Below are positions 49,591-52,882 of a stretch of 64,000 nucleotides of DNA, piece by piece; the stretch's first letter is position 1; each line of letters opens with the position of its first letter. The position numbers were made by a program, and so were the translations under genes. The notes under the pieces were generated by a model, which searched no databases, had not been told where the DNA came from, and saw nothing but the letters and a program-made list of their open reading frames with translations. The stretch lies in NCBI GenBank assembly GCA_964016885.1, contig CAXHJY010000343.1, positions 248,001 through 312,000 of the forward strand, given 5' to 3'. The DNA comes from Eledone cirrhosa (taxonomy: Eukaryota).

Positions 49591-49971
49591 CATGGACTGA
49601 GGTGGTAAGGGCAGACCTCTGAACCTCACGGTGTAGATGACAAAGGACCGTGACAAGTGAAGAGATGCTTTGCTGAATAGGACCCATCCCACCCTTGCAA
49701 GCAGGGAAAAGCGGACGTAAAATGATGATGATGATGATGATGATGATGATAATATGGTTTCCCTCATCTATGCATATATTTAGTTAAATTGCTGCATTAA
49801 AAGATATATTTTCCAAACATATCAAAGTGATATGGCTTCCCACCTGTATATGTTTGTGTGAAGTTAATGTAGCATTGAAAGAGAATGATTTACCATAGAT
49901 ATTACACTGATATATATTTGTATTCTCATTAATTCACAATTTTGAGAGGATTTATCACTGATGTCAATGCG

Positions 49972-52100
49972 TTAAGATTTCTCCTCTGTATGTATGAGTT
50001 TGTGAGTAGTTAGGCTACTTTTCCCAGAGAGTGATATACCACAGATATCACAGTGATATGGCTTGTCTCCTGTATGGGTACGTTTGTGGCTAGTTAAGGT
50101 ACTACTTTGAGAGAATGATTTACCACAGATATCACAGTTGTATGGCTTGTCTCCTGTATGTATACGTTTGTGGCTAGTTAAGGTACTACTTTGAGAGAAT
50201 GATTTACCACAGATATCACAGTCGTATGGCTTGTCTCCTGTATGTATACGTTTGTTAAGGCACTACTTTGAGAGAATAAAACTTCAAGTGAAATCTGATA
50301 TTGTATAGATTCATATAGACTCGTAACTCACCAGAGAAAGATAGAAAAGAAGTAAGAAAAAGATATAGAGGAATAATTGACTCCTACTAATAAAAAGATG
50401 GAAGTTAAACTGGTGTTGACATGTCACCAGGAGAGGAGATGATTGCTATATTAGAGAGTCCTATCAGAATGAATTTTTCACTAAACTGCCATAGAGCAGA
50501 CCTCTCTAGAGATAGAAGGATGACATTTATAGAGCGTGCTGGAATACCACTGTTTGCATTGGAGAGAATTACTCTGGAAAGGAAAGTTGATATCTACAGT
50601 TTACCAATATAGAAATATAAAATTTCCACTGTTAAATCTATCTCTGCTTCTTAAGTATTCTGTATTATCTCATACTGTTTCTTTCTTATTTCAGAATACC
50701 AGATGACATTGGGATAAATTATTATTTTCAATCTCGGATACATCACCTCTATTTATCATCATTTGAAGACTATTAACTGAAATCACAGCTGAGGGAAATA
50801 TAGAAGATATATTTTTTAGGAATATAATGTAAAAAATATTACAAGTATATTCTGTTGGAGATGAAATTATTATGGAAAATAAATTGAGTGAAAAGGTTAA
50901 ATGCGAAACACAATCGAAAATGTTTAGTATTCCTGTTGAGATGACAAAGGTTGGAGAAGAGAAACCATATCACTGCAATATCTGTGGTAAATCATTCAAT
51001 ATACGTAGTACCTTAACTACTCACAAAGTTATACATACAGGAGTCAAACCATATTACTGTAATATCTGTGCTAAATCATTCTCTGGGAAAAGTAGCCTAA
51101 CTAGTCACAACCATTTACATACAGGTGAGAAGCCATACCACTGTGATATCTGTGGTAAATTATTCTCTTATAGTAGTCACTTAACTAGCCACAAACGTAT
51201 ACATATAGGAGACAAGCCATACCACTGTGATATCTGTGGTAAATCATTCTCTGATAGTAGTACCTTAACTAGACACATACGTACCCATACAGGAGACAAG
51301 CCATAGCACTGTGATATATGTGGTAAATCATTCTCTGATAGTAGTACCTTAAGTAGACACAAATGTACCCATACAGGAGACAAGCCATATCGCTGTGATA
51401 TCTGTGGTAAATCATTCTCTGATAGTAGTTCCTTAACTAGCCACAAACGTATACATACAGGAGACAAGCCATACCACTGATATCTGTGGTAAATCATTCT
51501 CTCAAAGTAGTACCTTAACTAGACACAAACATATACATACAGGAGAGAAGCCATACCACTGTGATATCTGTGTTATATCATTCTCTGGGGAAAGTAGCCT
51601 AACTACTCACAAACTCATACATGCAGTGGAGAAATCTTAATGCATTGACATCAGTGATAAATCCTCTCAAAATTGTGAATTAATGAGAATACGAATATAT
51701 ATCAGTGTAATATCTATGGTAAATCATTCTTTCAATGCTACATTAACTTCACACAAACATATACAGGTGGGAAGCCATATCACTTTGATATGTTTGGAAA
51801 ATATATCTTTTAATGGAGCAATTTAACTATATATAGGCATAGATGAGGGAAACCATATCATCATCATCAACATCATTTTACGTCCGCTTTTCCCTGCTTG
51901 CAAGGGTGGGATGGGTCCTATTCAGCAAAGCATCTCTTCACTTGTCACGGTCCTTAAAACGTATACGTTTGTGTCTAGGCAAGGCACTACTATCAGAGAA
52001 TGGTTTACCACAGCTATCAGAGTGATATGGCTTCTCACCAGGAATACTAAACACTTTAGATTGTGTTTCACATTTAATCTTCTCACTCAATTTATTTAAA
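49972..52100 (-). pseudogene. Minus-strand ZNF gene split by an inverted ZNF copy
   Basis: 5' part 51961-52100 (NKLSEKIKCETQSKVFSIPGEKPY..., ATG lost); 3' part 49972-50277 (last fingers, EEKS*); acceptor TATCTTCAG intact at about 52215. Confidence 0.8.
50872..51640 (+). pseudogene. 8-finger C2H2 ZNF copy in antisense orientation (144-aa, 4-finger ORF open to 51306)
   Basis: [24 protein letters not shown] in place of the KPY Tyr at 51304-51306; 2-nt deletion at about 51478; ends HAVEKS*. Confidence 0.85.
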
Positions 52101-52882
52101 TAATGATATTTTCTTCAACAGAATATACAATTGATTTACTTGTAATATTTCTTATATTATATTCCTAAAAAATATATCTTCTATATTTCCCTCAATTGTG
52201 ATTTCAGTTAATATCTGAAGATAATACAAACTTATGTTTCACCCAAGTTTAGTTAAAATACAAAACCATCTCATAGTGAAGAAAATAAACTCAGTTCTGA
52301 GGAAATATTTCACAGTAATTGAACTATAGATTTATATAAACAGTGTTATATAAGTTCTGTTTAAAATATTTTAGTCTTCAAATGATAAATATAGGTGGTG
52401 TATCCAAGATTGAAAATAATACTTTATGCCAATGTAATCCGGTATTCTGAAATGAAAAAGAAACAGTATGAGATAATACAGAATACTTTAGAAGTAGAGA
52501 TAGATTTAAGAGTGGACATTTTATATTTCTATGTTGATAAACTATAGATGTCAACTTTCCTGTCCAGAGCAATTCTCTCCAATGTAAGCAGTGGTATTCA
52601 AGCAAGCTCTGTAAATTATATCCTTCTATCTCTAGAGAGGTCTGCTCTACGGCAGTTTAGTGAAAAATTCATTCTGATAGGACTTTCTAACGTAGCTATC
52701 ATCTCCTCTCCTGGTGACATGTCAATACAGGTTTAACATATACATATATAAATATATATACACACACACACATATATATACACAAATATATACACATATA
52801 TATACACATATATATAAATATATATACACACACATACATAAATATACACACATATATATATATATACATATATATATATATA

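What the first reader, a model, noticed from the sequence alone, without database searches (positions are those of the whole stretch)
49643..52214. ZNF gene nested antisense inside another ZNF gene: candidate family-targeting long hairpin RNA locus
Seen: a 1.68-kb plus-strand ZNF copy (50274-51955: upstream region, coding region, 3' region) lies between the two halves of a minus-strand ZNF gene. The left junction has GAAT microhomology and the right has AAAAC filler. This makes 49643-50277 and about 51330-51955 inverted arms of roughly 630 bp. The arms share variants absent from the 39-kb paralog (TATATCA for TAAATCA in the last finger; GAAGAGATGCTTTGCTGAATAGGACCC in the tail), while the 5' part of the insert resembles the 41-kb gene. 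The host gene has lost its ATG but keeps its splice acceptors (about 52215 and 52447) and a candidate leader module at 58.6-59.4 kb. Known: inverted gene duplications give hpRNA/endo-siRNA loci in Drosophila and young miRNA loci in plants, and coleoid cephalopods have very high ADAR activity on dsRNA. Inference: a transcript from the host promoter would be non-coding, carry about 770 nt antisense to ZNF coding sequence and fold into long dsRNA. Because fingers are near-identical across the family, it could act on many ZNF mRNAs.
Basis: partly seen in the sequence, partly recalled or inferred. Interest (0 to 1): 0.75.

Follow-up and report, generated by a model that had tools for sequence, protein, structure and literature searches.

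The report
Amplified fold-back zinc-finger pseudogene family
A zinc-finger gene copy sits backwards inside another zinc-finger locus and the arrangement was copied to about six places in this probably octopus genome; its RNA is predicted to fold into a 600-base double strand that is likely edited and discarded rather than used to silence the gene family.

Summary
The nest is real. Its junctions occur 6 (left) and 7 (right) times in the genome with the same microhomology and filler: one event, then segmental duplication to about six loci in four diverged lineages. A run holding spliced sequence joins the 58.6-kb leader exon to the family acceptor and has a contig across the left junction (strand and level unknown). 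The predicted host RNA folds into 498 + 97 bp helices. The arms diverge like the loop, with no compensatory or G:U bias. [quoted passage not shown] Best reading: a transcribed, neutrally drifting fold-back pseudogene whose dsRNA is an ADAR substrate. A family-wide antisense or piRNA regulator is not excluded (about 15%). No earlier scan note on this DNA was found.

The parts
59646..59800 (-). Promoter-like block and candidate first exon (CCAAT and GC-box-like motifs, pyrimidine run, donor GAAG|GTAAAC)
   Evidence: Sequence; at least 40 genomic copies, the cap of scored candidates; found upstream of 4 of 7 nests in the 17-20-kb units examined. Promoter function is inferred.
58639..58840 (-). 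Leader exon ending in donor GGAG|GTAAGT (its 5' end is approximate)
   Evidence: Two contigs of run X3 carry this exon's last bases as a loose end at the homologous family acceptor 50693; the donor is intact in 6 of 7 nests.
52447..52737 (-). Host intron end and first acceptor (AG at 52448-52447); also pairs at 89.7% with insert 50404-50772
51961..52446 (-). Host (H-type) 5' exon: 160-bp segment with second acceptor (52215), lost ATG near 52100, broken first finger
   Evidence: closest intact sibling L012 (446-aa ORF, 14 fingers) shares a 7-codon deletion
51956..51960 (.). Right junction filler AAAAC (3-5 nt not explained by donor or host); forms the 14-bp palindrome AAACGTATACGTTT with the host flank
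   Evidence: junction pattern matches 7 places, control 0
50278..51955 (+). Inverted insert: promoterless copy of a donor-type (D) ZNF gene; intron end, acceptor 50693, ATG 50872, premature TAG 51304-51306 (144 aa, 4 fingers), frameshifted rest to TAA 51640, 3' region and LINE-like tail
51330..51955 (+). Right arm of the main inverted repeat
50274..50277 (.). Left junction, GAAT microhomology
   Evidence: junction pattern matches 6 places, control 0; bridged by one X3 contig 50191-50326
49643..50277 (-). Left arm: last three fingers, stop, 3' region and LINE-like tail of a ZNF gene
49000..49591 (-). Degenerate ~80-bp finger-derived repeats of the family 3' region
48947..48952 (-). Candidate poly(A) signal AATAAA, the first one downstream of both arms
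   Evidence: present in 15 of 15 units examined, nested and un-nested. Use is inferred.

Best explanation
This is a fold-back zinc-finger pseudogene, copied to about six loci from one junction-bearing ancestor, that is likely transcribed from the host leader into a non-coding RNA predicted to form about 600 bp of duplex, which ADAR would edit and the cell would likely retain or degrade with no selected effect on other genes. Origin (junctions shown, mechanism inferred): DNA synthesis switched template twice. It left a ZNF finger array through GAAT microhomology, copied a donor-type ZNF gene backwards from its last intron to its LINE-like tail, and was joined by end-joining with a 3-5-nt filler to the first finger of a host-type gene; the fingers in between were lost. 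Spread (shown): segmental duplication in the C18 ZNF clusters; finger number then changed in each copy and one copy lost its centre. RNA (partly shown): leader exon spliced to the family acceptor, then host 5' exon, antisense insert, sense 3' end, and the family AATAAA at 48952. Fate (inferred): hyper-editing of the stem, little or no siRNA.
For: Same two junctions in all copies, control pattern 0. Right arms group with right arms and left with left; arm-to-arm identity in 5 nests (93.5-96.9%) is no higher than between un-nested paralogs (about 95-98%). Divergence among nest lineages: arms 2.9% and 3.3%, loop 3.0% and 3.3%, host exon 2.6%, flanks 3.0-4.9%. No shared derived change between the arms in 5 of 5 nests; G:U-compatible mismatches for a minus-strand RNA 1/13, 8/26, 2/15, 2/17, 8/27, not above the plus-strand counts. 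Insert ORF broken in 6 of 6 complete copies. Another inversion in the cluster (41/44 kb) was amplified the same way, so copy number needs no selection. Spliced leader and a left-junction contig in X3; an X3 contig identical to 50411-50521 matches exactly only nest copies among the loci fetched (3 of 47 sequences). Fold: 498 + 97 bp helices against 81 bp for the intact sibling. One Dicer_dimer hit; 4 Piwi-domain loci, 2 closest to miRNA-type AGO and 2 to PIWI. Octopus has exceptionally high hyper-editing tied to long inverted dsRNA (PMC5625713, passages).
Against: No RNA shown across both arms, no strand, and no contig shown across the right junction (table cut). X3's type is not on record; a retrocopy could give the same splice join, and its absence from X1 is not shown (188 loose ends hidden). 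Donor-like sites in the antisense insert (51610, 51024, 50331) could splice out an arm. Neutrality tests rest on 21-41 substitutions per class and have little power; arms are slightly less diverged than three of four flank segments. Leader donor kept in 6 of 7 and AATAAA in 7 of 7 nests also fits a function. Editing is not shown: the junction contig has 10 unexplained differences against 0-2 for the matching genomic copies and X3 has more T>C places than X1 (21 vs 13, other classes -2 to +3), but the letters are hidden and the samples differ. The organism is not identified by any search.
Confidence: 0.55

Rival explanations
1. Trans-acting family regulator without a dedicated siRNA pathway: the host leader drives an RNA with about 770 nt antisense to ZNF coding sequence, used as a piRNA precursor or direct antisense partner, so the nests damp a whole young ZNF subfamily in the cells that express it.
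For: Shares the family's own leader. Of 1078 insert 21-mers, 46-575 match perfectly in each of 16 of 16 un-nested loci or segments tested. About 460 nt of antisense coding sequence (50872-51330) lie in the loop. Two PIWI-type loci are present. Molluscs have somatic piRNAs with ping-pong on protein-coding reads (PMC6128900, passages). Six loci retained.
Against: No small-RNA data. No conservation of arms or loop above background. An unrelated inversion is amplified similarly. One copy (L010) has lost most of the antisense coding part and no leader was found in about 13 kb upstream.
Confidence: 0.15
2. Drosophila-style hpRNA: Dicer cuts the 600-bp stem into phased 21-22-nt siRNAs that slice ZNF paralog mRNAs.
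For: Long stem; 254 of 601 right-arm 21-mers are perfect in the left arm. Birth next to targets, use of an existing transcription unit and amplification all match young D. simulans hpRNAs (PMC10317233, sections 7 and 12). Two slicer-like miRNA-type AGO loci exist (catalytic residues not checked).
Against: DICER2 and siRNA-type AGO reported lost in Mollusca, no endo-siRNA signature in oyster, DECH box degenerate in Cephalopoda (PMC11114477, abstract and passages); no processive siRNAs in an annelid (PMC8915122, passages). One Dicer_dimer hit here (partial-domain search, a second Dicer is not strictly excluded). No pairing-preserving substitutions.
Confidence: 0.07
3. Genomic fold-back with no hairpin RNA: the nests are silent, or splicing (for example leader to the 41-kb gene, or donor 50331/51610 to a downstream acceptor) or early cleavage removes one arm, so the repeat matters only as DNA.
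For: Donor- and acceptor-like sites in the antisense insert; ATTAAA at 51814 and AATAAA at 52096 on the minus strand; no other leader module lies between the nest and the 41-kb gene; promoter block not found in 3 of 7 nests.
Against: An X3 contig crosses the left junction unspliced and another matches insert intron exactly; the 52096 hexamer is present in coding sequence of intact paralogs too.
Confidence: 0.2
4. Assembly artefact.
For: The window's contig is collinear at 97-99% with C18:7.54-7.58 Mb and is probably a second haplotype; L002 and L005 arms are 99.8-100% alike, so the copy count may be inflated.
Against: Same junctions in four lineages 2-4% apart; independent contig across the left junction.
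Confidence: 0.02

Closest known systems
Drosophila hpRNA loci, especially hp-pncr009/825-Oak and young D. simulans hp58, hp88 (PMC10317233; abstract and sections 7, 12 read)
   Same: Inverted gene-derived repeat born inside or next to its gene family, borrowing an existing transcription unit, and amplified into several copies.
   Different: hpRNAs are defined by Dcr-2-dependent 21-22-nt siRNAs and target de-repression; neither is shown here and the Dicer-2/siAGO pair appears absent. Here a whole gene copy is inverted, leaving a 1-kb loop with antisense coding sequence and a second, competing inverted pair.
ADAR hyper-edited inverted-repeat dsRNA in metazoans, including octopus (PMC5625713, PMC9699675; passages read)
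   Same: Two inverted near-identical copies within 2 kb of one predicted transcript, in non-coding context.
   Different: Arms come from a protein-coding family rather than a transposon; editing is only hinted at here.
Microhomology-mediated template switching with fold-back or templated insertions at breaks (PMC11724301, abstract read; FoSTeS/MMBIR names recalled)
   Same: Microhomology at one end, short filler beside a palindrome at the other, inverted copy from a nearby locus.
   Different: Germline, 1.6-2.1 kb, fixed and later multiplied; the snap-back origin of the filler rests on two extra matching bases only.
Cephalopod C2H2-ZNF expansions (PMC12513265; passages read)
   Same: Clustered, tandem-finger genes with shared regulatory segments.
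   Different: A word search of that paper found no 'antisense', 'pseudogen' or 'orientation' and no inverted gene copies.

Membership tests
hpRNA (endo-siRNA) locus | Long inverted repeat able to fold within one transcript | tested here: met
   498 + 97 bp helices predicted for 52446-49600; L010 remnant z = -25.7 against 20 shuffles
hpRNA (endo-siRNA) locus | A single transcript spans both arms | tested here: inconclusive
   Spliced leader and left-junction contig in X3; strand unknown, right junction not shown
hpRNA (endo-siRNA) locus | Phased 21-22-nt siRNAs from the stem | not testable with these tools
   No small-RNA run available
hpRNA (endo-siRNA) locus | Dedicated Dicer-2 and siRNA-type Argonaute in the genome | tested here: not met
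   1 Dicer_dimer hit of 7 candidates; 4 Piwi-domain loci, 2 closest to miRNA-type AGO and 2 to PIWI, judged on one exon each. Exon-wise search, so a very divergent gene could be missed.
hpRNA (endo-siRNA) locus | Arms kept paired by selection (compensatory or G:U changes; expectation recalled) | tested here: not met
   0 shared derived changes in 5 of 5 nests, no G:U bias, arms diverge like the loop; low power
hpRNA (endo-siRNA) locus | Target de-repression when the locus or Dicer is lost | not testable with these tools
   Needs knock-down
ADAR hyper-edited inverted repeat | Clustered one-strand A-to-G changes in RNA against matched DNA | tested here: inconclusive
   T>C places 21 vs 13 and 10 hidden differences in the junction contig; different samples, letters not shown
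piRNA source locus | 24-31-nt 1U reads with ping-pong signature | not testable with these tools
   PIWI-type loci present; no small-RNA data
Template-switch inverted duplication | Microhomology or short filler at both junctions, inverted copy of a nearby sequence class | tested here: met
   GAAT at the left, 3-5-nt filler at the right, donor-type flank identified in 5 sequences
Retrocopy (processed pseudogene) | Introns lost, poly(A) tail, target-site duplication | tested here: not met
   Insert keeps about 415 bp of intron, ends inside a LINE-like tail before the family AATAAA, no poly(A)

The most novel reading that the evidence does not exclude
A cephalopod C2H2-ZNF subfamily carries its own built-in silencer: about six fold-back loci driven by the family's leader make antisense or hairpin RNA that piRNA, Dicer-1 or ADAR machinery turns against dozens of paralogs, an hpRNA-like control of a transcription-factor expansion in a lineage that lacks the canonical endo-siRNA pathway.
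Probability: 0.15. Interest if true: 0.8.

Novelty: new variant of a known kind. Interest (0 to 1): 0.42.

Why it matters
How cephalopods control hundreds of near-identical ZNF genes is open, and so is what long endogenous dsRNA does in molluscs that lack Dicer-2. These loci give unique junction tags in an otherwise unmappable family, so one long-read and one small-RNA library can test whether a gene-derived hairpin is edited away or turned into a family-wide regulator. If neutral, they still record how finger arrays break, fold back and multiply. Eight paper searches (listings only) showed no report of inverted ZNF-in-ZNF loci in cephalopods; the library lacks most subscription papers.

Tried and rejected
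No RNA holder was listed by the run search; this is no evidence either way. Contig depths were not used, since they cannot rank parts of a gene. Runs X5 and X6 (other organisms, small shares) showed no piece across either junction in the cut tables, so presence in other species is untested. Trees of the downstream flank had low support and cannot settle whether the left arm came from the host or the donor gene. L011 (88%) and the 99%-identical duplicates were left out of the majority call; L001, L003 and L005 were left out of the divergence means as near-duplicates. No shuffle control was run for the 2.8-kb fold. No genome-wide scan for other, independent nests was possible; inverted repeats of at least 200 bp and 88% were seen in 13 of the 43 sequences of 5 kb or more that were scanned (471.5 kb, chosen around ZNF genes). 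Supplements of the papers were not read.

Full report
Setting. The window is G000:C370:248001-312000 in a 3.0-Gb genome. It holds tandem C2H2 zinc-finger genes among LINE fragments.

Observation. A plus-strand ZNF copy (50278-51955) lies between minus-strand ZNF pieces. Arms 49643-50277 and 51330-51955 align at 91.7%. The subfamily has two 5' types: H, with a 160-bp segment and a second acceptor, and D, without it. The right flank is H-type; the insert is D-type, closest to L009 and L037 (97.6%, 97.3%) rather than the 41-kb gene (96.5%).

Junctions. Un-nested D genes end their shared upstream sequence in ..GAGATCTGAAT|AAAACTTC and the nests read ..GAGAGAAT|AAAACTTC, so GAAT is true microhomology. 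At the right end the donor tail would go on with TGTCATC or CGTCATC; the nests have AAAAC (5 of 7) or AAAAT (2 of 7) and then host sequence. The sibling L012 already has AC before GTATACG, so 3-5 bases are filler. They extend a host palindrome to AAACGTATACGTTT, which hints at snap-back synthesis, but only by two bases. This fits microhomology-mediated template switching with end-joining capture, as described in yeast (PMC11724301, abstract). The insert keeps intron sequence and has no poly(A), so it is no retrocopy.

One event, many copies. The left junction pattern matches 6 places and the right 7, with 0 for the reversed controls. The seventh (L010) has lost its centre and keeps a stem of about 185 bp. 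The window is collinear at 97-99% with C18:7.54-7.58 Mb over 25.6-59.9 kb and is probably a second haplotype of L001, leaving six loci in four lineages: {window, L001, L003}, {L002, L005}, L004, L010. Insert length varies from 1564 to 2114 bp with finger number. A separate inversion with 460-bp arms at 41/44 kb is also present at two further loci, so amplification is normal here.

One host or two genes? The H-type 5' part shares a 7-codon deletion with intact L012 (14 fingers), but L012 has a different 3' tail (85%). The nest's downstream flank is closer to D genes L006/L007 (97.2-97.5%) than to H genes (92.5-95.0%), and left and right arms show no fixed difference. So the event may be a fold-back of one D gene followed by a jump into an H gene, not a simple insertion. 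H genes L011 and L014 do carry the same tail class and tree support is low, so this stays open. The predicted RNA is the same either way.

In an alignment of 21 3' regions, TATATCA and the tail variants are the majority state; the 39-kb copy is the derived one. Right arms group with right arms, and arm-to-arm identity (93.5-96.9%) is no higher than between free paralogs.

Selection. Among nest lineages the arms diverged 2.9% and 3.3%, the loop 3.3% and 3.0%, the host exon 2.6%, host intron and flanks 3.0-4.9%. No nest of 5 shows a derived change shared by its arms, and substitutions do not favour G:U pairs for a minus-strand RNA: left arms 6 favourable to 6 unfavourable transitions, right arms 6 to 10, un-nested 13 to 10 in the same classes. 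Numbers are small. Insert ORFs are broken in 6 of 6 complete copies, against 2 of 4 free D genes and 0 of 4 free H genes. The host ATG is kept in 3 of 7 nests, but those frames run into the antisense insert.

Transcription. The run search listed no holder on record as RNA. Laying contigs showed that X3 has two contigs whose loose end at acceptor 50693 is the end of the exon at 58658-58641, just before donor GGAG|GTAAGT. That is a splice join, so X3 very likely holds RNA and the 58.6-kb module is a real leader exon at family level. One X3 contig spans 50191-50326, with 87 and 49 bases either side of the left junction; another equals 50411-50521, which among 47 held sequences is exact only in the window, L001 and L003. 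Strand and level cannot be read from contigs, and no piece across the right junction was shown. The leader donor is intact in 6 of 7 nests and the promoter-like block is found in 4 of 7. The first AATAAA after both arms, at 48952, is present in 15 of 15 units. Against a full hairpin: ATTAAA at 51814 and donor-like sites at 51610, 51024 and 50331 in the antisense insert.

Structure and reach. RNA 52446-49600 folds at -1322 kcal/mol with helices of 498 and 97 bp; the intact sibling gives -531 and 81 bp at most (no shuffles). 254 of 601 right-arm 21-mers are perfect in the left arm, and 46-575 of 1078 insert 21-mers match in each of 16 un-nested loci or segments.

Machinery. One Dicer_dimer hit and four Piwi-domain loci: two score best to human AGO1-4-type proteins and two to PIWI. 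This agrees with the reported loss of DICER2 and siRNA-type AGO in Mollusca (PMC11114477, abstract and passages) and the lack of processive siRNAs in an annelid (PMC8915122, passages). Molluscs do have somatic piRNAs that hit coding sequence (PMC6128900, passages). Octopus has exceptionally high hyper-editing of long inverted dsRNA (PMC5625713, passages), mostly outside coding regions (PMC9699675, passages).

Editing hint. The junction contig has 10 differences where the matching genomic copies have 0-2, and X3 shows 21 T>C places against 13 in X1 while the other 11 classes differ by -2 to +3. Both fit A-to-I editing of a minus-strand RNA, but the letters are hidden, the samples differ and the comparison is after the fact. 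It is a lead only.

Verdict. Shown: the nest, its single origin, its amplification, broken ORFs, the family leader and lack of detectable constraint on pairing. Partly shown: transcription of the nest. Inferred: template switching, hairpin formation in vivo, ADAR editing, neutrality. It works like a young hpRNA locus in anatomy (PMC10317233) but fails two membership features tested here, so it is not filed as one. Novelty: new variant of a known kind. Interest 0.42; the regulator reading has probability about 0.15 and would deserve 0.8.

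Noticed in passing
window 41107-41566 and 44152-44608: A 460-bp inverted duplication (98.9%) brackets a 2.6-kb segment that is inverted relative to other D-type genes, as staggered-break inversions would leave (mechanism recalled). The same structure is at C18:8.09 Mb (L043) and 6.53 Mb (L044); L046 has the inversion without the duplicate.
   Followed up: partly
L010:5416-6109 (C18:6.047 Mb): A nest copy with an internal deletion, leaving a compact stem of about 185 bp with a loop of about 320 nt (z = -25.7); no leader found in about 13 kb upstream.
   Followed up: partly
window 25616-59894 vs C18:7540135-7580780: Contig C370 is collinear with C18 at 97-99% here but differs on both sides: likely an uncollapsed haplotype or a large mosaic duplication.
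   Followed up: partly
window 1821-2612, 7777-8269, 22.7-23.5 kb, 29.1-30.4 kb, 58.55-59.9 kb: The ZNF leader module recurs five times in the window, some copies without a nearby gene, and at least 40 times in the genome.
   Followed up: partly
window 38243-38726, 49000-49591, 11928-12223: Degenerate ~80-bp finger-derived repeats lie in the 3' region of the family's genes, after a LINE-like tail insertion shared by the subfamily.
   Followed up: no
G000 C15:25.91 Mb and C23:2.33 Mb: Two miRNA-type Argonaute loci with similar exon layout, suggesting a duplicated AGO in this genome.
   Followed up: no
window 27645-28284 and 920-1554: A 630-bp element that matches itself in both orientations, probably a fold-back or MITE-like transposon.
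   Followed up: no
window 39116-41045: The 41-kb gene has over 20 fingers but is broken into two frames near 40248; free D-type genes L007 and L009 are frameshifted at codon 40.
   Followed up: no
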